In this document: one piece after another, positions 52,390-59,779 of the stretch | How the letters are laid out: every line of letters starts with the position of its first letter | Position numbering within the stretch: the stretch's first letter is position 1 | Source: a virus | DNA: 64,000 nucleotides | Virus genome (UHGV): UHGV-1378817 | Reading direction: 5' to 3' (one strand) | Notes under the pieces: generated by a model | Database searches by the model: none | Seen by the model: the letters and a program-made list of their open reading frames with translations, nothing else | What the model was told of the DNA's origin: nothing | Translations under genes and position numbers: made by a program

Positions 52390-52860
52390 ATGAAACTTGA
52401 TAAAAATGTTCAACGAAAAGCTTTCTTGGATATGATCGCATATTCGGAAGGCACAGATAATGGTAGACAACCTACCAAGGATCGGGGGTACGATGTCATA
52501 GTCGGAGGCAAGCTGTTCAGCGATTACAGCAAGCATCCCGGTGTTTACGTTAAGCTAAATGCTAAGCTTACCTCCTCCGCTGCTGGGCGTTACCAGGTTT
52601 TGGAGAAGTTTGCTAAACACTACATGAAACAGTTAGGATTACCAGATTTTGGCCCTGCCAGTCAGGACAAGATTGCGTTGCAACTGATCCGTGAGTGCAA
52701 GGCTCTCGCCGACATTGACGAAGGGCGTATCCACGAAGCTATCCGCAAATGCCGTTCCCGCTGGGCTTCGTTACCCGGTGCCGGATATGGTCAGCATGAA
52801 CAGAAGATCGAGAAGTTGATCGAGGTGTTTAAAAAGGCAGGCGGCATTGTTCTGGATTGA
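52390..52860 (+). CDS. endolysin, lambda R-type lytic transglycosylase
   Basis: Near-colinear match to lambda R as I recall it: QRKAFLDM..SEGTDNGRQ..GYDVIVGG..AGRYQ..KQLGL.DF..WASLPGAGYGQ. Confidence 0.85.
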   Translation: MKLDKNVQRKAFLDMIAYSEGTDNGRQPTKDRGYDVIVGGKLFSDYSKHPGVYVKLNAKLTSSAAGRYQVLEKFAKHYMKQLGLPDFGPASQDKIALQLIRECKALADIDEGRIHEAIRKCRSRWASLPGAGYGQHEQKIEKLIEVFKKAGGIVLD

Positions 52861-52863
52861 TCA

Positions 52864-52892
52864 TTGACATAACCACACGGACGTGGTATTGT
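52864..52892 (+). promoter_or_regulatory. candidate promoter TTGACA-17-TATTGT
   Basis: TTGACA at 52864-52869, 17-nt spacer, TATTGT at 52887-52892, then AGGAGGG SD and ATG 52924. Confidence 0.4.
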
Positions 52893-52923
52893 TACCTCAT
52901 AAGATGTTCAGGAGGGTTTAACC

Positions 52924-53130
52924 ATGAAAGATTTTCTGTTGGCAATTTTGTTCATGGCAGCATGTCTGTCCTGTGGTGTCGTGTTTGCAGGTGAAACAGC
53001 GTATCTTGTCGATGTGTATCGGGACAATGGTAAACGTATTTGCCTTTATGAGACAAGCCAAGGTGAGCTCTACGAGCTTGTGAAACAAGGCGAGGCAGGT
53101 TCCTGCCCTCGCACCCATTTCTTTGAATAA
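52924..53130 (+). CDS. small secreted/lipoprotein-like protein (68 aa)
   Basis: N-terminal signal peptide LLAILFMAACLSCG with Cys near cleavage region; strong SD; own promoter; directly downstream of endolysin. Confidence 0.5.
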   Translation: MKDFLLAILFMAACLSCGVVFAGETAYLVDVYRDNGKRICLYETSQGELYELVKQGEAGSCPRTHFFE

Positions 53131-53139
53131 GGGGGATAC

Positions 53140-53604
53140 GTGGAAGACGGACGTTTAATGAAGTCTGAACGCAGGCTTATTGTGCAACTGATCCCAGAAA
53201 CAGCTTGGTATAATAACCTCCGAAACGCTGTGAAGAAGAGTGAGTGGGATAAGATCCGTAAGAAGTGCTACAGAGAAGCCAACTACACTTGTGAGGTGTG
53301 CGGCGGTAAAGGCAGCAAACATCCAGTGGAATGTCATGAACTTTACACTTTCGAAGAGGGAGTGATCCGGCTTGTCGGACTGATAGCGTTGTGCCCAGAT
53401 TGTCACACATCTGTGCATCCTGGGTTAGCAAATATCCGTGGAAAGTATGCTCAGGCAGTTAGTCAGTTGGCTAAGGTGAATAAGATCACTAAGGGTATGG
53501 CAGAGGCGTATTACCGAGACTGCTTTGCAGAGTGGCGTGAGCTTAGTAAAGTTCCGGAATGGAAGACTGACTTTTCTTGGATACATCAGTATTTGGAGAG
53601 TTAA
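53140..53604 (+). CDS. HNH endonuclease-like zinc-finger protein
   Basis: CEVCGG...HPVECH...LIALCPDCHTSVH fits the CxxC...H...N/L..C..CH HNH pattern; GTG start after AAGGGGGAT. Confidence 0.45.
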   Translation: MEDGRLMKSERRLIVQLIPETAWYNNLRNAVKKSEWDKIRKKCYREANYTCEVCGGKGSKHPVECHELYTFEEGVIRLVGLIALCPDCHTSVHPGLANIRGKYAQAVSQLAKVNKITKGMAEAYYRDCFAEWRELSKVPEWKTDFSWIHQYLES

Positions 53605-53606
53605 GT

Positions 53607-54461
53607 GTGGTATACTACAATGACAATGATAAAGATGCAGTTGCTTGGTTGAAGAATCTAATATCTTTAGGACTACTTCCTCAAGGCGAGGTGGATGATC
53701 GTTCTATTACAGAGGTTACTGTAGAAGATCTTAGAGGTTTCACTCAGTGGCACTTCTTCGCTGGCATAGGTGGATGGCCTTTGGCCTTGAAACTTGCTGG
53801 CATTCCAGAAACTTGGTCGGTATGCACAGGATCTCCGTGCTGCCAACCTTTCTCTCAGGCAGGTAAGCAACGTGGAAAATTTGACCCAAGACATCTTGCA
53901 CCAACATACCTCCGGCTCGTTAAACAGCTTAAACCTGAGTTCATGTTTGGAGAGCAGGTTGCAAAAGCGGTTGAATCTGGATGGCTCGACGATATGCAGA
54001 ATGAAATGGAAAACTCTGGTTACAGCTTCGGGGCTTCCATACTTAATGCTGCAATCCTCAACGCCCCGCACCGCCGCGAACGACTTTACTTCGGGGCAGT
54101 TAGCAACGTGGTTAACCCCTACGGTAACTCAGGTAGGGTGCAGATCTCAGGAAGCGATGGAAAGGCGCAAGCAACAACGCTTAGCAACTGGCAGGAAGTC
54201 ATTAAGTCCTGGGAATCTGTGGGAGCAGGTGAGGATGTATTACGGGTGTGGGAGCATACAAGACAGTATCTATGCCGAGACGGAAAATGGCGTAAACTTC
54301 CTGAACCCGGCATTCCCTTGTTGGTTGATGGGCTATCCACCCCAATGGGATTGTCTCGCCACAAAGGCTTCGGTAACGCTATAGTTCCGCAAATAGGGGC
54401 ACTTTGGGTGCAAGAGTTTATGAAGTCAGTGGATGATTGTGTAAGAGGTGAGTATGGCTAA
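53607..54461 (+). CDS. DNA (cytosine-5)-methyltransferase
   Basis: Motif I FFAGIGGW, motif IV GSPCCQPFSQAG (PCQ), motif VI-like FGEQV; start ambiguous between ATG 53577 (overlaps HNH gene) and GTG 53607. Confidence 0.75.
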   Translation: MVYYNDNDKDAVAWLKNLISLGLLPQGEVDDRSITEVTVEDLRGFTQWHFFAGIGGWPLALKLAGIPETWSVCTGSPCCQPFSQAGKQRGKFDPRHLAPTYLRLVKQLKPEFMFGEQVAKAVESGWLDDMQNEMENSGYSFGASILNAAILNAPHRRERLYFGAVSNVVNPYGNSGRVQISGSDGKAQATTLSNWQEVIKSWESVGAGEDVLRVWEHTRQYLCRDGKWRKLPEPGIPLLVDGLSTPMGLSRHKGFGNAIVPQIGALWVQEFMKSVDDCVRGEYG

Positions 54462-54744
54462 GAAACCTGTAAAAGAGAAATTTGATAAGACAGCTTTTGT
54501 ATTCGATACACCTCTGGACGACATCATCAGAGGTATGCAATCCTTGTATCGGAAGGCTGAATCTGAGCAGTTGTCTGAATCAGAACTTTACTGGCTTGGT
54601 TGGTGGGAGTTAAACCTGCCTAAAGCTGAAAGTTCTTGTCTGAGAACTGTTAAAACGTGCGCCCAAGAAAACGCTGCACTTGGAATCTACCACAAAAGGA
54701 AAAGATCAACAAAAAGCTCTCCAAGAAAGACCAAAAAGTCTTGA
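54454..54744 (+). CDS. hypothetical basic protein (96 aa)
   Basis: ATG 54454 with AAGAGGTGAG SD, overlapping methyltransferase stop; Lys/Arg-rich C-terminus. Confidence 0.4.
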   Translation: MAKKPVKEKFDKTAFVFDTPLDDIIRGMQSLYRKAESEQLSESELYWLGWWELNLPKAESSCLRTVKTCAQENAALGIYHKRKRSTKSSPRKTKKS

Positions 54745-54770
54745 CAAAAGTGTTATTAATCTGATATTAT
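54741..54770 (+). promoter_or_regulatory. candidate promoter TTGACA-18-TATTAT
   Basis: TTGACA at 54741-54746, TATTAT at 54765-54770, then AGGAGA SD and ATG 54804. Confidence 0.45.
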
Positions 54771-54803
54771 CGGTCAGATATCTATAAACTAGGAGAACTA
54801 GAT

Positions 54804-55112
54804 ATGCTTAAAATTTTTATTGTTGAAGATAAAGATATTGTCCAGTTGTATGCAAACGAGAATCATAAAGGTATGATTCTGAAGAAGGCAAGCAACCTTC
54901 ATGAAAACACAATTCAACCTGGCGATGTAATTAAGATCTGTGGTTATATGATATCAGACTCCTTGATGAAAATAACCCACCACTGGGGGTCTAATCCGTT
55001 CCTTTTTGAAAAGTATTGGGATGTTGAGTCACTTATTGCAGAGAGTGATGATGCATTCCATTACAGCATCCAACCATCTTGCAGAATAACTAACAGGAGG
55101 GTCTTTGAGTAG
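54804..55112 (+). CDS. hypothetical protein (102 aa)
   Basis: ATG with AGGAGA SD downstream of promoter; no motif recognised. Confidence 0.45.
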   Translation: MLKIFIVEDKDIVQLYANENHKGMILKKASNLHENTIQPGDVIKICGYMISDSLMKITHHWGSNPFLFEKYWDVESLIAESDDAFHYSIQPSCRITNRRVFE

Positions 55113-56244
55113 AGAATATCCACTTATTGAGTCCATAGATTGTCTGGCTGATCTTCTTGAACCTGACGCTATAGTTTATTATGACTTCGATCAAGTTGCA
55201 TATCAAGCTGCAGCAAGTTGTGAAAAAAGGACAATTGAGGTAACACACAAAGCCTCCGGACGTAAGAAGATGTTTAAAACACGAACAGAGTTCTGGGGGC
55301 GGCAGAAGAACACCGTTGGTGGTTGGTTAAAAGCTGAGAATACCAACCGTGAAGCTGCATGTAAAAAGGCTGGCAAGGAGTTTATTCCGTGGACACGAGA
55401 AGATTTCGATGTCTTGGATATCCAAACCCCTGATCCTGTAGAGAACTGCTTGCACACAATTAAGTGTAAAGCTAATGCAGTCCTTAATTATCTCGGTATT
55501 CCGGAAGATCGGTGCGTGGGGGTACTTGGAGGCACAGGTAATTTCAGACTAGATCTTCCCATGCCGGAAAGATATAAAGCCAACCGTAACAATACTCTTC
55601 GACCACTGCTGCTTGGAGATGCAAGACAGTATCTCCAAAAGCAGTATAATGCTCAAGTGATCAACGGTATCGAGGCTGACGACTGGTTAGCTATCCAGCA
55701 ATTTGAAGGTTGGAACCACTACCAAAAAACAGGTAAGTTCAACAAGTTTATTATCTCTATTGATAAGGACCAAAGAACACTACCGGGGCTTGTGTTCGAT
55801 CCCATGCGAAACGATAAGGGAGATTTTGTAAGAGAAACCCCTATGCTGATCGATAACGGTATGGGAAACATCTTCATGAAGCCTAATGGAGAGGTTGGTG
55901 GTTACGGAATGCTGTTCTTCGGATACCAAATGCTGTGTGGTGATTCTGCTGACAACATCAAGCCGTATCAGGGACTTATCGGTAAGGGTAAGTTCGGAGA
56001 TGCCTCAGCATTCTACCTACTGTCTCAGTGCAGCACTCCAAAGGAGATGTGGATGGCTATTATTGATCAGTACAAGAAGTGGTTCCCGAAAGGTGTTGTT
56101 AAGTATACTGACTTCAATGGTATTGATCGTAGAATTTCCGTAGGTCAATGGATGAGTATAATTTTTGACTGTTTGTATATGAAGCGAACATTCAATGATC
56201 AAACAAAACTTGTTAACGTTCTTAGAAATGTTGGAGCAATTTGA
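55105..56244 (+). CDS. 5'-3' exonuclease / flap endonuclease (RNase H-like)
   Basis: GIEADDWLA matches the conserved acidic EADD block of FEN/T5-D15-type nucleases; TTG start with AGGAGGG SD. Confidence 0.6.
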   Translation: MSREYPLIESIDCLADLLEPDAIVYYDFDQVAYQAAASCEKRTIEVTHKASGRKKMFKTRTEFWGRQKNTVGGWLKAENTNREAACKKAGKEFIPWTREDFDVLDIQTPDPVENCLHTIKCKANAVLNYLGIPEDRCVGVLGGTGNFRLDLPMPERYKANRNNTLRPLLLGDARQYLQKQYNAQVINGIEADDWLAIQQFEGWNHYQKTGKFNKFIISIDKDQRTLPGLVFDPMRNDKGDFVRETPMLIDNGMGNIFMKPNGEVGGYGMLFFGYQMLCGDSADNIKPYQGLIGKGKFGDASAFYLLSQCSTPKEMWMAIIDQYKKWFPKGVVKYTDFNGIDRRISVGQWMSIIFDCLYMKRTFNDQTKLVNVLRNVGAI

Positions 56245-56576
56245 TGACTAAAAATTCTGTAGATAACGCAATTATGGAAGCTGTTTTTGAGGATGATCAC
56301 ACAACAGGGACACTTAAAACAAAAAATACATTCGTTGTTGCCACAGGTATGTGGCGGTTGTATGAAGATGACACCATTTCATACATCCTGTACACGGATG
56401 ATTACGCAGATGACCGTGTATGGTCTGCTGTTTTAAAAGAGGATTGTGAGCTGATTGAGGGCGAGCGGTTATGCATGTTCACCAGTGTGGAAACAGATGT
56501 TAAGCTTTGCTCTCTCGTATTGTTCAAAGATAAGGCTTATGCTCCTGATGAAGGAGAGGAGGATGAGGAAGCATGA
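56241..56576 (+). CDS. hypothetical acidic protein (111 aa)
   Basis: ATGA overlap coupling with upstream gene; acidic C-terminus. Confidence 0.4.
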   Translation: MMTKNSVDNAIMEAVFEDDHTTGTLKTKNTFVVATGMWRLYEDDTISYILYTDDYADDRVWSAVLKEDCELIEGERLCMFTSVETDVKLCSLVLFKDKAYAPDEGEEDEEA

Positions 56577-57202
56577 GAGAGCGTCTATTATCCATAGACC
56601 AGTCGTTGACACACACAGCTTGCGTTGTATGGGACGATGGAAAGCCTGTTCATAAGGTTGTGTTACGAACTCAAAGCTCATCTGCAAAAGAGAAGAAACC
56701 AGGGACGGTTTCTTTTGCAACAGCTGCTGAGCGTATTGACTGGATCTGCAAACAGGTCAGATATTATATCCACACGCACGGCGTTGACACCGTAGTTATG
56801 GAAGGGCTTTCCTTTGGATCACGCGGGGATGCCACACGTGAACTGGCTGGGTTGTTTTACGGTCTTGAAGTTATGCTTTGGGATGCCTTAGCTGATTGTG
56901 AAAATGACGGCCTGTTTAAGGTCCACACAGTGACACCAACAACTGCCAAAAAGTTTGCTCGTAGTCATCTTCCTGAGGAACTGGCTTTCGAGGAGAAGAA
57001 AAAGCTTGACAAAAAGACAGGTAAAGAGCATACTGTGAAGAAACCTGTTACAATGGATAAAAAGTTGATGGTTAAGGCCTGCGAAGTATCTGAACCTGGG
57101 TTCCTAGATGGGATCAATTTGGTACAAGGTAAGGCCGATCTCGCAGATGCTTATTGGATAGGCAGGGCGCATCTGGAGGGATTATCGCAAAGCGTAAAAT
57201 AA
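56573..57202 (+). CDS. RuvC-like Holliday junction resolvase (tentative)
   Basis: N-terminal LSIDQSLTHTACVVW resembles the RuvC beta-1 Asp motif; later VVMEGL acidic residue; overlap coupling. Confidence 0.4.
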   Translation: MRERLLSIDQSLTHTACVVWDDGKPVHKVVLRTQSSSAKEKKPGTVSFATAAERIDWICKQVRYYIHTHGVDTVVMEGLSFGSRGDATRELAGLFYGLEVMLWDALADCENDGLFKVHTVTPTTAKKFARSHLPEELAFEEKKKLDKKTGKEHTVKKPVTMDKKLMVKACEVSEPGFLDGINLVQGKADLADAYWIGRAHLEGLSQSVK

Positions 57203-57759
57203 GAAAGAAAGCTGTCAAAGCCCCCGTTCATAACGGGTGGTTAAAAGATTCTAAGGACATAGCCAACTTTCGAAAAGAATTGTCAGAGGAGCAGGATGGT
57301 CTTGATCCGATCTTGTGCGAGCCACTTCGTAAGCCTTGTTTGGATCATGACCATCTGACTGGTCGTTGCAGGGGTGTTTTGTCACAATGCACTAATACCT
57401 TTGAGGGGTATGTGCTTAAATACTGGATGAAATACTGTAACGAGTATACAGATTGCAGTTTATCAGAGGCGTTGCGCCGGATGGCTGACTATTTGGAGAA
57501 AGACTACAGCGACTTCCCGCTCCACAAAAACTACAGAGATGATATGACAAAGTTCTTGAGGAGATGCTCTAAAGCTACGATCATTGCACGAGCAGAATCA
57601 GATCTCAATCTTGTCATTAATCCAGAGTGCACCAAGCATGAGGCTATTGAGTTCTACATGCAGGAGTTTATAAAGAAAACTGAGGAGAGAGATTTCTATG
57701 GGGATGAAAAAGGTATTCAATCCTTGCGACTCAGTCCTGATCAGGATGAAATACCGTAA
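57154..57759 (+). CDS. endonuclease VII-like recombination endonuclease
   Basis: ILCEPL...CLDHDHLTGRCRGVLSQCTNTFEG parallels T4 endo VII CLICQREL...HLDHDHELNG..RGLLCNLCN; start uncertain (TTG 57154 overlaps upstream gene). Confidence 0.55.
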   Translation: MDRQGASGGIIAKRKIRKKAVKAPVHNGWLKDSKDIANFRKELSEEQDGLDPILCEPLRKPCLDHDHLTGRCRGVLSQCTNTFEGYVLKYWMKYCNEYTDCSLSEALRRMADYLEKDYSDFPLHKNYRDDMTKFLRRCSKATIIARAESDLNLVINPECTKHEAIEFYMQEFIKKTEERDFYGDEKGIQSLRLSPDQDEIP

Positions 57760-57919
57760 CTGGAAAGGTGTTGTTGCAGATCGCTGCGTTACTGAGCCTA
57801 ATTTATGGTTTGGCTCTACAGAGTATCATAAAGAAGAGCAGTGGTTGATGCGTGCCTTCGATGTAGACAAGGGCGAATATCGTGACTTCGCTTTAAAAGA
57901 CATTCTTCAGTTTTACTAA
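57746..57919 (+). CDS. hypothetical small protein (57 aa), start uncertain
   Basis: Track ORF 57698..57919 overlaps upstream gene by 62 nt; internal ATG 57746 chosen; weak SD. Confidence 0.3.
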   Translation: MKYRNWKGVVADRCVTEPNLWFGSTEYHKEEQWLMRAFDVDKGEYRDFALKDILQFY

Positions 57920-57931
57920 GGAATCTTAACG

Positions 57932-58915
57932 ATGATGACAAAGTTAACTCTTGAGCAAATTTTAACACTAAAGCAACAGGGATACACTAATAGACAAATT
58001 GCTCGTGAATTTTTAGGCCGTGAGTCACGTGAGAGCTGGATCCGACTACAGCTTAAACGTGCACAAGAGAATATGTCAGAGATTGTAGGAGAAGCAACGG
58101 AGCGCTTCCTTGAAGAGCACAAAGGTGCTAAAGTTTGGGTGTATGATACAGAGACATCTCCAACAAACGGCTGGTTCTTTGGGCACTATAAGACCAACAT
58201 TCAAACCTGCGGTATTGAAATTATGCCCTACATGCTAACTTTCGCAGGTAAGTGGTTAGACAGTCCTAGTGTGGTTGACTGCGCTCTTCCTGATTACAAA
58301 ATGTGGGATGAGGATATTCACAATGATCTCGAATTGATTCAGGATTTGTGGTATTATCTGGATACATGTGATGTCGCAGTAGCCCACAATTCAGGTTTTG
58401 ACTGTGGGTGGGCCAACCAACGATTTGCATTTCACGGATTGCCTCCAACAAGCCCCTACAAAGAGGTTGACACCCTTAAAATGATCAAGAAGGCATTCCG
58501 TTTGAATGCAAACACTTTGGAGTATGCATGCAAATACTTCCAACTTGCCCGACAGAAACTGATTGACCACACATTTGAAATGTGGATCAAGTGTGTTCAC
58601 GGTGATCTTGAGGCGTTTAAACAGATGCGGGAGTACAATGTTGGCGATATCCTATCTCTGGAAGGCCTGTATTTGCTGGCTCGCCCGTTTGCTAAGCAGC
58701 ACCCCAACATGTCATTGTACTACCAGGATGAGGAGCCAAAAGTTCGTTGCCCACGCTGTGGTGGAGAACACCTTCACGAGGAAGAAGCTTTGGCGTATAC
58801 TCAACTGAGTGCATTTAAAACATACCGCTGCGAAGGTTGTGGATCTGTTGTTCGTGACCGTAACAACATCCGCACCAGAGAAGAAATGAAAAATACCCTG
58901 ATTCAGATAATCTAA
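57932..58915 (+). CDS. DEDD-family 3'-5' exonuclease with N-terminal HTH
   Basis: Exo I VYDTETS, Exo II AVAHNSGFD, Exo III region HGDLEAF..Y..D; N-terminal LKQQGYTNRQIAREF HTH-like. Confidence 0.6.
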   Translation: MMTKLTLEQILTLKQQGYTNRQIAREFLGRESRESWIRLQLKRAQENMSEIVGEATERFLEEHKGAKVWVYDTETSPTNGWFFGHYKTNIQTCGIEIMPYMLTFAGKWLDSPSVVDCALPDYKMWDEDIHNDLELIQDLWYYLDTCDVAVAHNSGFDCGWANQRFAFHGLPPTSPYKEVDTLKMIKKAFRLNANTLEYACKYFQLARQKLIDHTFEMWIKCVHGDLEAFKQMREYNVGDILSLEGLYLLARPFAKQHPNMSLYYQDEEPKVRCPRCGGEHLHEEEALAYTQLSAFKTYRCEGCGSVVRDRNNIRTREEMKNTLIQII

Positions 58916-58923
58916 CAATTATA

Positions 58924-58951
58924 GGGAGGCTTGCGCCTCCCTTTTCCTTTT
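58924..58951 (+). terminator. intrinsic terminator
   Basis: GGGAGGC-UUGC-GCCUCCC perfect 7-bp stem followed by UUUUCCUUUU, directly after exonuclease stop. Confidence 0.6.
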
Positions 58952-58960
58952 GGAGGCACT

Positions 58961-59779
58961 TTGAGCAAGAAAGAGTCCAACGACAAATACTACACAAACC
59001 CTGAGTATGCAGAATATCTTGTTGGTAAAGTAAAAGATAAGTATGGGAATTGTGCATACGTTGAGCCTTCTGCTGGAAGGGGTTCTTTTTCAAAACTATT
59101 TTCAGAGATACTGTCGTACGATTTAGTACCAGATCCTGAATTTGAAGGACCAACACCGTGCATTCAGGCAAACTTCTTGGAGGTGCATCCCAAGGCAGAT
59201 GTCTTCATAGGTAACCCACCATTTGGCAAGAATTCATCCTTAGCTTGCAAATTCTTTAACCATTGTGCATCATTGCTAGAGCTTGGAGGGGCTATAGCCT
59301 TCATCTTGCCACGGACATTTGAAAAAATATTTTTTGCAAACAAACTGGACATGTCGATGCACCTTGTCTACAGCGAAAGGTGCCCTAAGAATTCGTTTTT
59401 ACTTAATGGCAAACCTTATGACGTGCCATGTGTTTTCCAAATTTGGGAGAAAAAGGCGTGCAATAGGGATCCTGTAGAGATTGGAGAGAATAAGTTATTT
59501 TCTTTTAGCACACCAGATGACTACGACTTCTGTGTAAGACGTGTTGGGTATAATGCTGGAAAAGTATTGGGGGATGATGACCCAAAATCTGAAGAATCAA
59601 CATATTTCATAAAATCTTTAGTTAACGGTGTTGACAGAGTGTTTGCTGAATGCTATTCTTCTTTTCAAGAAGAAGCAGGTAAGACTGCTGGAATGAAGAG
59701 TATAGGTAAGAAAGAACTACAATACATTTTGGAGACCAGGTATGATCAAAAGCATAGACTTGACCAAAGAACTTACTGA
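58961..59779 (+). CDS. DNA amino-methyltransferase (N6-adenine or N4-cytosine class)
   Basis: Motif I YVEPSAGRGSF then motif IV FIGNPPFGK (NPPF); start moved from track 58931 (inside terminator hairpin) to in-frame TTG 58961 after GGAGG. Confidence 0.6.
   Translation: MSKKESNDKYYTNPEYAEYLVGKVKDKYGNCAYVEPSAGRGSFSKLFSEILSYDLVPDPEFEGPTPCIQANFLEVHPKADVFIGNPPFGKNSSLACKFFNHCASLLELGGAIAFILPRTFEKIFFANKLDMSMHLVYSERCPKNSFLLNGKPYDVPCVFQIWEKKACNRDPVEIGENKLFSFSTPDDYDFCVRRVGYNAGKVLGDDDPKSEESTYFIKSLVNGVDRVFAECYSSFQEEAGKTAGMKSIGKKELQYILETRYDQKHRLDQRTY

What the first reader, a model, noticed from the sequence alone, without database searches (positions are those of the whole stretch)
53140..59779. Two DNA methyltransferases of different classes plus an HNH protein
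A C5-cytosine methyltransferase (FAGIGG, PCQ motifs) and an amino-methyltransferase (SAGRGSF, NPPF) are both encoded, with an HNH-type gene ending at the first one's start. Double methylation suggests broad anti-restriction protection. The HNH gene could be a homing-type nuclease or a modification-dependent partner.
Basis: partly seen in the sequence, partly recalled or inferred. Interest (0 to 1): 0.4.

Follow-up and report, generated by a model that had tools for sequence, protein, structure and literature searches.

The report
Two orphan phage methyltransferases, one mobile
An rV5-like E. coli phage carries two stand-alone DNA methyltransferase genes and a conserved HNH nuclease gene, all already annotated in near-identical phages; the only unusual points are that the cytosine methyltransferase is a rare mobile cassette and has its sequence motifs in a shuffled order.

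Summary
The window, from an rV5-like Vequintavirus, encodes an HNH protein (53140-53604), a C5-cytosine methyltransferase (53607-54461) and an NPPF amino-methyltransferase (58961-59779). Near-identical genes are already annotated this way in public phage records.

- BASEL plating data for CarlMeissner, which carries both genes at about 98% identity, show strong restriction by EcoRI and EcoRV. Its profile is nearly the same as that of a sister phage without the C5 gene. Broad protection is therefore contradicted.
- The HNH gene is a core gene of the whole subfamily. It is not a sporadic homing gene and not a dedicated methyltransferase partner.
- The amino-methyltransferase is also a core gene, of the TaqI/BseCI-like gamma class.

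Three things were new to me.
- The C5 gene is a roughly 0.9-kb accessory cassette found in 4 of 121 Vequintavirus records. It replaces the last ~16 HNH codons and has spread horizontally to the same site in a TH18-like lineage, and to the nrdA-nrdB gap of Krischvirus.
- Its family, about 4,200 clusters, has motif order II-III-I-IV. I did not find this order described.
- This clade has Cys-Cys instead of Pro-Cys at the catalytic site, yet evolves under purifying selection.

Overall this is ordinary, with modest curiosities.

The parts
52864..52892 (+). Promoter-like site (TTGACA-17-TATTGT, TG extension) upstream of p68, HNH, the C5-MTase and p98
   Evidence: Consensus scan only; function is inferred.
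53140..53604 (+). HNH (beta-beta-alpha-Me, CxxC...CxxCH) nuclease gene, a core gene of Vequintavirinae. An alternative start is ATG 53158.
   Evidence: PHROG 5200 at 2.6e-71. Weak matches to the IscB, ZorE and group II intron HNH domains. tblastn finds it in 240 phage records, 233 at 80% coverage or more.
53556..54453 (+). Minimal mobile cassette: a replacement copy of the last ~16 HNH codons plus the C5-MTase gene. The left crossover lies between 53550 and 53556, the right one between 54453 and 54528.
   Evidence: SNPs at 53556, 53577 and 53584 and the indel are linked to methyltransferase presence in 5 MTase+ versus 7 MTase- genomes. The window carries rV5-type SNPs immediately outside this stretch. 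The left boundary is the same in the TH18-like lineage.
53607..54461 (+). C5-cytosine DNA methyltransferase, 284 aa, with motif order II-III-I-IV-VI-VIII-IX-X. YYNDND 53613-53630, FAGIGG 53757-53774, SPCCQPFS 53832-53855, GEQV 53949-53960, PHRRER 54066-54083, GNAIVP 54372-54389.
   Evidence: AF2 core residues 1-165 are confident and the region between motifs VIII and X is not. The top fold match is M.HhaI.
54448..54744 (+). p98 (PHROG 6208, function unknown). Its ATG overlaps the methyltransferase stop codon; in MTase- genomes it overlaps the HNH stop codon instead.
58923..58942 (+). Terminator-like hairpin followed by a T-run, separating the DnaQ-like exonuclease gene from the amino-MTase gene
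   Evidence: The HdK5 record also annotates a terminator in this region.
58961..59779 (+). Gamma-class amino (probably N6-adenine) DNA methyltransferase, 272 aa. Motif X DKYYT 58982-58996, motif I EPSAGRGSF 59063-59089, motif IV NPPF 59213-59224, followed by a C-terminal target-recognition domain.

Best explanation
The window comes from the DNA replication and recombination module of an rV5-like (Vequintavirus) E. coli myovirus. It encodes two stand-alone ('orphan') SAM-dependent DNA methyltransferases with no restriction partner. Their evolutionary status differs.

(a) The amino-methyltransferase is 272 aa and gamma-class, with motifs X-I-II-III-IV(NPPF) followed by a TaqI/BseCI/CamA-like recognition domain. 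It is a vertically inherited core gene.

(b) The C5-cytosine methyltransferase is 284 aa and is an accessory cassette of about 0.9 kb. It is embedded in the 3' end of a core HNH gene and brings its own copy of the last ~16 HNH codons. It is translated from a GTG two bases after the HNH stop codon. The cassette is exchanged horizontally among large lytic myoviruses.

Inferred, not shown: each enzyme methylates one short motif on replicating phage DNA. That would block only the restriction enzymes that read that motif, so protection is narrow and host-dependent rather than broad.

The HNH protein is a conserved phage nuclease that belongs to the neighbouring nuclease, ligase and resolvase module. 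It works independently of either methyltransferase.
For: Identity of the phage: 121 phage records match the region at 90-99.5% identity.

C5-MTase as an enzyme:
- PF00145 at 4.7e-20, profile matches to M.HhaI, and Foldseek top hit HhaI at 1.7e-9.
- The catalytic Cys, the E of motif VI, RxR of motif VIII and GNAIVP of motif X are invariant in the family.
- dN/dS is 0.14-0.23, so the protein is under purifying selection.

C5-MTase as accessory and mobile:
- Only 4 of the 121 Vequintavirus records carry it.
- It is a precise presence/absence allele in rV5-like genomes.
- The same site and the same left boundary are used in the TH18-like lineage. There the methyltransferases are 79.5% identical while ten syntenic neighbouring proteins are 34-61% identical.
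- It is also a presence/absence cassette between nrdA and nrdB in Krischvirus.
- No close copy exists in 5,426 E. coli genomes.

HNH as a core gene.

No broad protection: BASEL text and raw EOP data.
Against: - No methylome or biochemical data exist for either enzyme, so target motifs and even activity are inferred.
- The C5 enzyme departs from the consensus at key positions: Pro-Cys becomes Cys-Cys, motif II E becomes D and W becomes N. These changes occur in only 2 of 120 relatives.
- It scores below the TIGR00675 cut-off, 54.8 against 100.65. [quoted passage not shown]
- No benefit of either gene was visible against the six RM systems tested in BASEL.
Confidence: 0.6

Rival explanations
1. 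One reading: the two methyltransferases together methylate the genome densely enough to give broad protection against host restriction.
For: Two methyltransferase classes are encoded. The short variable region of the C5 enzyme could in principle mean low sequence specificity.
Against: CarlMeissner carries both genes at about 98% identity, yet it is restricted about 1000-fold by EcoRI and below detection by EcoRV. Its profile matches that of a sister phage without the C5 gene. The BASEL authors state that these phages lack effective protection. More than 95% of Vequintavirus genomes do without the C5 gene. GC-rich palindromes are avoided in the window, which suggests that restriction pressure is met by site avoidance.
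Confidence: 0.07
2. The C5-MTase cassette is a selfish element that homes. A phage nuclease, possibly the adjacent HNH, breaks MTase-less genomes at the HNH 3' end in mixed infections. Repair then copies the cassette in, with the methyltransferase as cargo or as a selective bonus.
For: - The insertion point and left boundary are the same in two lineages whose backbones are only about 50-60% identical.
- The window is a recombinant whose donor-type tract ends within 6 nt of the cassette edge on the left and within 75 nt on the right.
- In Krischvirus the cassette occupies the nrdA-nrdB gap, which in sister phages holds a homing endonuclease gene.
Against: - The HNH protein is identical in MTase+ and MTase- genomes apart from a few C-terminal residues, so it would cut its own genome in more than 95% of phages.
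- The HNH gene is core, not sporadic.
- No HNH lies next to the cassette in Krischvirus or Seunavirus.
- The low frequency, 4 of 121 records, argues against efficient drive.
- Ordinary homologous recombination among co-infecting phages, given enough time, explains the short linked tracts equally well.
Confidence: 0.12
3. The C5-MTase-like protein is not a conventional sequence-specific m5C DNA methyltransferase. It might be weakened, act on another substrate, or transfer another group.
For: - Cys-Cys replaces the near-universal Pro-Cys, and the motif II residues that hold the SAM ribose and adenine in M.HhaI (a role I recall from the structure, not tested here) are changed, E to D and W to N.
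- The motif order is shuffled and the recognition region is very short and poorly modelled.
- A natural C5-carboxymethyltransferase (PDB 8yf3) is among the fold matches.
Against: - Purifying selection is strong.
- All other catalytic residues are invariant.
- No Cx-SAM synthase or other modification gene was seen among the gene products I characterised at 49.6-62.8 kb; the first 48 kb of the window was not scanned for such genes.
- The closest profile matches are ordinary Type II and orphan m5C methyltransferases.
Confidence: 0.1
4. The NPPF enzyme methylates RNA (rRNA or tRNA), or makes N4-methylcytosine, rather than N6-methyladenine in DNA.
Against: - Only DNA adenine methyltransferases (M.BseCI, MmeI, M.TaqI, CamA) align over both domains, 226-251 of 272 residues.
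- It matches REBASE-derived PADLOC Type II MTase models over the full length, at 3.3e-34 and 1.5e-25.
- Cellular relatives sit in defence or mobile contexts. They are followed by a conserved ~200-aa protein with a faint REase_II match.
- The motif X 'D-x-Y-Y-T' is typical of gamma-class DNA amino-methyltransferases.
Confidence: 0.15

Closest known systems
Orphan phage DNA methyltransferases (for example T4 Dam, P1 Dmt, the Bacillus phage SPR/phi3T C5-MTases, and the methyltransferases of Drexlerviridae and Dhillonvirus)
   Same: These are stand-alone SAM-dependent methyltransferase genes in a lytic phage, with no cognate endonuclease. They are presumed to mask restriction sites on phage DNA. 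The C5 enzyme here belongs to the same sequence family as the 'C-specific methylases' of Dhillonvirus, Klebsiella siphophages and N15.
   Different: No protective phenotype was seen against six RM systems. The C5 gene is a rare, horizontally moving cassette in otherwise near-identical genomes. What is recalled about T4, P1 and SPR comes from general knowledge and was not tested here.
Canonical C5-MTases (M.HhaI, M.HaeIII, Dcm; Pfam PF00145) and the known circularly permuted ones (M.BssHII, M.Alw26I, M2.Eco31I, M.Esp3I, M2.BsaI)
   Same: The catalytic core is the same: motif IV Cys-Gln-x-Phe-Ser, motif VI Glu, motif VIII R-x-R and motif X G-N-A-(I/V). The closest fold match is M.HhaI.
   Different: The motif order is II-III-I-IV...X. 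The FxGxG loop and helix A have moved to between motifs III and IV. Moving residues 43-66 back to the N-terminus in silico raises the Pfam score by about 25 bits and gives one colinear match, and separate hhalign runs agree. In the described natural permutations, IX-X precedes I-VIII, and a 2018 REBASE survey reported only that type (PMC5944983). This clade also has Cys-Cys instead of Pro-Cys.
Gamma-class N6-adenine DNA methyltransferases M.TaqI, M.BseCI, CamA and the MmeI methyltransferase domain
   Different: This protein is much smaller (272 aa against 380-550 aa). Sequence similarity is below Pfam thresholds. There is no restriction partner in the phage, and the target motif is unknown.
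Free-standing HNH homing endonucleases of phages (for example T4 MobA-E, I-HmuI)
   Same: It is a small HNH protein encoded between conserved genes of a large lytic phage. A presence/absence polymorphism lies at its 3' end.
   Different: The HNH gene itself is not polymorphic. It is core across the subfamily and diverges in step with its neighbours. The polymorphic element is the methyltransferase.

Membership tests
C5-cytosine DNA methyltransferase (Pfam PF00145 / Dcm superfamily) | Significant match to the family profile above the curated threshold | tested here: met
   PF00145 scores 72.7 bits against a cut-off of 22. However, TIGR00675 scores 54.8 against a cut-off of 100.65, which is not met.
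C5-cytosine DNA methyltransferase (Pfam PF00145 / Dcm superfamily) | Motif IV catalytic Pro-Cys dipeptide (GxPCQxFS) | tested here: inconclusive
   The catalytic Cys79-Gln-Pro-Phe-Ser is present and invariant in the family. The preceding Pro is replaced by Cys in this clade: 2 of 120 relatives have CC and 117 have PC.
C5-cytosine DNA methyltransferase (Pfam PF00145 / Dcm superfamily) | SAM-binding motif I (FxGxG), motif VI (ENV), motif VIII (QxRxR) and motif X (GNxV) | tested here: met
   FAGIGG, GEQV (E invariant, N replaced by Q), PHRRER (RxR invariant, Q replaced by H) and GNAIVP are all present.
C5-cytosine DNA methyltransferase (Pfam PF00145 / Dcm superfamily) | Canonical linear motif order I to X | tested here: not met
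   The order is II-III-I-IV. TIGR00675 aligns from profile position 24. HhaI residues 2-33 align to query 35-66, and HhaI 35-73 to query 1-38. The de-permuted sequence gains about 25 bits. The trait is family-wide: 114 of 120 relatives by motif search, and the top 150 of 4,202 clusters nearly all begin at or near protein residue 1-5.
C5-cytosine DNA methyltransferase (Pfam PF00145 / Dcm superfamily) | Formation of 5-methylcytosine at a defined DNA motif | not testable with these tools
   No methylome or enzyme data were found for any Vequintavirus.
Gamma-class amino (N6-adenine) DNA methyltransferase | Catalytic (D/N/S)PP(Y/F/W) motif IV after motif I, with motif X at the N-terminus and the recognition domain at the C-terminus | tested here: met
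   DKYYT, then EPSAGRGSF, then D54, then GNPPFG, then the C-terminal domain. These are invariant in 68 relatives.
Gamma-class amino (N6-adenine) DNA methyltransferase | Match to curated family profiles | tested here: inconclusive
   Pfam Eco57I scores 16 bits against a cut-off of 25.3, and there is no NCBIfam hit. PADLOC MTase_II PDLC03255 matches at 3.3e-34 over the full length.
Gamma-class amino (N6-adenine) DNA methyltransferase | Two-domain fold like M.TaqI | tested here: met
Gamma-class amino (N6-adenine) DNA methyltransferase | DNA rather than RNA substrate, and m6A rather than m4C product | not testable with these tools
   The best matches over the catalytic domain alone are RNA methyltransferases. 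The genomic context of cellular relatives hints at RM systems.
HNH (beta-beta-alpha-Me) endonuclease | CxxC...CxxC zinc ligands flanking the catalytic His, and a match to HNH profiles | tested here: met
   C51xxC54, H66 and C85xxC88-H89 are present, plus H93. PHROG 5200 and seven other HNH PHROGs match, and ZorE HNH matches at 1.9e-5. There is no Pfam HNH hit at E 0.01 or better.
Free-standing homing endonuclease | Sporadic presence/absence among closely related genomes | tested here: not met
   The gene is present in 240 phage records, including all Vequintavirus matches examined and related genera at about 50% identity.
Type II restriction-modification pair (HNH nuclease plus C5-MTase) | Nuclease and methyltransferase co-inherited, with the methyltransferase needed to protect against the nuclease | tested here: not met
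   More than 95% of genomes carrying the HNH gene lack the methyltransferase. Methyltransferase homologues occur without an adjacent HNH gene.

The most novel reading that the evidence does not exclude
The C5-methyltransferase cassette could be a selfish, site-targeting mobile element of large lytic myoviruses. It would home into the 3' end of the conserved HNH gene, and into the nrdA-nrdB gap of Krischvirus, after a nuclease-made break. It would also represent a previously undescribed, non-circular motif permutation (II-III-I-IV) of the C5-MTase fold, with a minimal recognition region and a Cys-Cys active site, possibly with unusual specificity. The permutation itself is well supported (about 0.85). 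That it is undescribed, and that the cassette truly homes, are the uncertain parts.
Probability: 0.15. Interest if true: 0.55.

Novelty: new member of a known kind. Interest (0 to 1): 0.3.

Why it matters
As found, it matters little. Near-identical genes are already annotated in GenBank as a putative homing endonuclease, a C5-cytosine methyltransferase and an N6-adenine methyltransferase. Published plating data show that they do not make these phages restriction-proof. That is a useful caution against reading 'methyltransferase' as 'anti-restriction' when phages are chosen for therapy.

Three modest points of value remain.
- The natural pair Bas48 (MTase+) and Bas49 (MTase-) is a ready-made test of what a phage orphan C5-MTase is for.
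- The cassette's recurrent insertion at one site in diverged phages offers a tractable case of gene mobility among lytic phages.
- A very large family, about 4,200 clusters at 50% identity, of C5-MTases with motif I moved to between motifs III and IV extends the known plasticity of this fold beyond the circular permutations described so far.

Tried and rejected
- HNH plus MTase as an RM-like or addiction pair: rejected on distribution.
- A hidden motif I upstream of the C5 ORF, through a frameshift or miscalled start: rejected. Relatives begin at 'M-x-Y-Y-N-E-W-D', and the top 150 family representatives nearly all match from or near protein residue 1-5.
- A prophage origin of the cassette: only two weak hits, 26% coverage at 68% identity, in 5,426 E. 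coli genomes.
- A restriction partner for the amino-MTase: cellular relatives have a conserved downstream phrog_6892 protein, but the window has no homologue, and the phage's downstream p152 belongs to a different family.
- Target-motif inference from palindrome statistics: uninformative. GC-rich 6-mers are avoided and GATC is not.
- IMG/VR scan for more HNH-MTase junctions: only 5 HNH loci were found and none had the methyltransferase.
- Literature searches for a Vequintavirus methylome, or for characterisation of this methyltransferase family, found nothing.
- The AFDB fold library was unavailable.
- I could not inspect model coordinates, so the strand order of the permuted fold rests on sequence alignments and the predicted secondary-structure order.
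Residues 2-33 and 69-170 agree with the PDB alignment. Residues 34-68 could not be checked against any tool output and rest on memory.

Full report
**Where the window comes from.** The 6.6-kb region matches 121 phage records at 90-99.5% identity, almost all of them rV5-like Escherichia phages of the genus Vequintavirus. All the genes discussed here are on the + strand, downstream of a coding-strand switch near 48 kb. From 50.9 to 62.8 kb the order is as follows.
- DNA ligase, endolysin and p68.
- HNH, then the C5-MTase.
- p98 and p102.
- A 5'-3' exonuclease, p111, a RuvC-like resolvase and endonuclease VII.
- p73 and a DnaQ-like exonuclease.
- The amino-MTase.
- Further genes, ending with ThyX.

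This is a replication, recombination and repair module.

**Checking the observation.** It is correct.
- HNH, 53140-53604: it has the CxxC...H...CxxCH pattern and matches PHROG 5200 at 2.6e-71.
- C5-MTase: it matches PF00145 at 4.7e-20. Its true start is GTG 53607, two bases after the HNH stop codon.
- Amino-MTase: it has EPSAGRGSF and NPPF. Its real start is ATG 58961, behind a strong terminator hairpin at 58923-58942.
- No other ORF of at least 120 aa in the window has the [DNS]PP[YFW] or [PC]CQx[FY]S motifs I searched for.

**The amino-methyltransferase.**
- Sixty-eight relatives share DxxYT (motif X), EPxxGxGxF (motif I), an acidic motif II, GNPPFG (motif IV) and a conserved C-terminal domain. 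This is the gamma-class order.
- Pfam and NCBIfam do not reach threshold. PADLOC's REBASE-derived Type II MTase model PDLC03255 matches over the full length at 3.3e-34.
- The AF2 model is confident, with pLDDT 93.
- Cellular relatives sit beside a Type I RM locus or on a conjugative element. They are followed by a conserved ~200-aa protein (PHROG 6892) with a faint REase_II match. The phage has no such partner.
- The gene is core in Vequintavirus (94-99.6% identity) and Phapecoctavirus (54%), and is found in some jumbo phages.
- I conclude it is an orphan gamma-class DNA amino-methyltransferase, probably making m6A. The target motif is unknown.

**The HNH protein.**
- tblastn finds it in 240 phage records: about 95-97% identical in Vequintavirus and about 50% identical over its full length in Seunavirus, Certrevirus, Mydovirus-type and related phages.
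- Its divergence from the TH18-like lineage (59%) is in line with its neighbours (34-61%).
- It is therefore a vertically inherited core gene. It is not a sporadic homing gene.
- It occurs without the C5-MTase in more than 95% of genomes.

**The C5-methyltransferase is an accessory cassette.**
- Only four database records carry the gene, all at 98.9% identity: HdK5, pangalan, CarlMeissner and Alma. In the others the HNH gene runs straight into p98.
- An alignment of 5 MTase+ and 7 MTase- genomes shows that the indel is linked only to SNPs at 53556, 53577 and 53584.
- Immediately outside this stretch, at 53550 and upstream and at 54528 and downstream, the window carries the rV5_ev147-type alleles. 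It does not carry those of the four MTase+ database phages. The window is thus a recombinant: an rV5-type backbone plus the cassette.
- The cassette replaces the last ~16 HNH codons with its own version (…EWKTDFSWIHQYLES*).
- The closest non-Vequintavirus relative (80% identity) lies in TH18-like Vequintavirinae contigs, again directly after the HNH homologue. The isolate TH18, 95% identical in nucleotides, lacks it.
- In that lineage the MTase+ allele also swaps the HNH tail from the same point, just after the conserved Ser-Lys codons.
- The methyltransferases are 79.5% identical, while the ten syntenic neighbours with a detectable match are 34-61% identical. The cassette therefore moved horizontally into the same site.
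- In Krischvirus a 57%-identical copy sits between nrdA and nrdB in 4 records. Most relatives lack it, and some carry a homing endonuclease gene there instead.
- In Seunavirus the gene lies elsewhere, about 9 kb from the HNH gene.
- No close copy exists in 5,426 E. coli genomes.
- dN/dS of 0.14-0.23 shows that the protein is maintained by selection.

**Motif order.**
- The protein starts directly with a motif II-like strand. MVYYNDNDKDAV here, and MNYYNEWDK in the family consensus, compare with M.HhaI VYSNEWDKYA.
- FAGIGG plus helix A lies between motifs III and IV.
- Four results support this.
  - TIGR00675 aligns from profile position 24, with an insertion of about 27 residues.
  - HMMER aligns HhaI residues 2-33 to query 35-66 and HhaI 69-170 to query 66-164.
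  - hhalign places query 1-38 on HhaI 35-73 and query 43-68 on HhaI 10-35.
  - Moving residues 43-66 to the N-terminus raises the PF00145 score from 72.4 to 97.0 bits. For a second family member the rise is from 61.6 to 86.1 bits. In both cases the result is a single colinear match to profile positions 5-163/165.
- The order is family-wide: 114 of 120 relatives by motif search. Of 4,202 clusters at E 1e-30 or better, the top 150 nearly all match from or near their own residue 1-5.
- A 2018 survey of REBASE reported only permutations in which IX-X precedes I-VIII (PMC5944983). I found no description of this II-III-I-IV order, but my literature access is limited.
- The AF2 core (residues 1-165) is confident. 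Its secondary-structure order is strand, helix, strand, strand, helix, strand, which agrees with the shuffled order. The segment between motifs VIII and X is poorly modelled.
- The Vequintavirus and TH18-like clade alone has Cys-Cys for Pro-Cys and D/N for E/W in motif II.

**Function.**
- Direct data exist for a near-identical phage. Bas48 CarlMeissner has both methyltransferases and is restricted about 1000-fold by EcoRI, below detection by EcoRV, and 10-50-fold by EcoCFT_II.
- Its profile is nearly the same as that of Bas49 EmilHeitz, which lacks the C5 gene. The authors describe the group as exceptionally susceptible to RM systems.
- 'Broad anti-restriction protection' is therefore contradicted.
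- The remaining, inferred role is narrow, motif-specific masking that pays off only on particular hosts. This fits the rarity and mobility of the C5 cassette.
- Pangalan, which carries the cassette, was isolated on E. coli K-12 MG1655. That strain is McrA+ and McrBC+ by general knowledge. Either methylation is sparse or it is not in an R-m5C context. This is inference only.

**Verdict.** The finding is real but ordinary, and already annotated in public records. Its functional interpretation is mostly unsupported. The mobile nature of the C5 cassette and the shuffled motif order of its very large family are modest curiosities and deserve only a brief follow-up.

Noticed in passing
window 58923-58942: A strong terminator-like hairpin (AGGGAGGCTTGCGCCTCCCT followed by a T-run) lies between the DnaQ-like exonuclease gene and the amino-MTase gene. 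The methyltransferase is therefore a separate or read-through transcription unit, and the TTG 58931 ORF start is spurious.
   Followed up: partly
window 52864-52892 and 54741-54770: Two near-consensus sigma-70-like promoters with TG extensions. The first is upstream of p68, HNH, the C5-MTase and p98; the second is upstream of p102 and the exonuclease gene.
   Followed up: no
window ~52860-52924 versus L002 1533-2216; L023 1701-1919: There are other small presence/absence ORFs in the same neighbourhood. rV5_ev147 has an extra 684-bp ORF between the lysin gene and p68 that the window lacks. ECP26 has an extra 219-bp ORF just upstream of the HNH gene. The region is a hotspot of small indels.
   Followed up: no
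L004 3434-4285 (Krischvirus nrdA-nrdB gap): The same methyltransferase family occupies the nrdA-nrdB intergenic gap in 4 Krischvirus records. Most relatives have nothing there, and JSE, phiS and AV108 have a homing endonuclease gene at that locus.
   Followed up: partly
L010 4805-5404; L012 4788-5471: Cellular homologues of the amino-MTase are followed by a conserved ~200-aa protein (PHROG 6892, N-terminal 'QSHGxxFE') with a faint Type II REase match. This may be an uncharacterised restriction enzyme family.
   Followed up: partly
whole window: Several GC-rich 6-bp palindromes are absent: TGGCCA 0 against 8 expected, CGATCG 0 against 5, GGCGCC 0 against 4.6, GGGCCC 0 against 4.2. GATC (313) and GAATTC (13) are not avoided.
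   Followed up: no
window 54448-54744 and 54804-55112: Public records label one or the other of these small ORFs 'transposase-like'. Only the PHROG 14449 family name supports this, and there is no Pfam transposase domain. The label looks like a propagated misannotation.
   Followed up: partly
public records: About 20 records named 'Campylobacter phage' are 98-99% identical to rV5-like E. coli phages. In rV5_ev147 the name 'EndoVII' is attached to the RuvC-like gene. These are probably host and annotation errors.
   Followed up: no
window ~48000: GC skew changes sign at about 48 kb, which coincides with a switch of coding strand (divergent transcription units).
   Followed up: no
window 57932-58915: The DnaQ-like 3'-5' exonuclease (PHROG 403, 'DNA polymerase exonuclease subunit') carries a C-terminal CxxC...CxxC zinc ribbon.
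   Followed up: no
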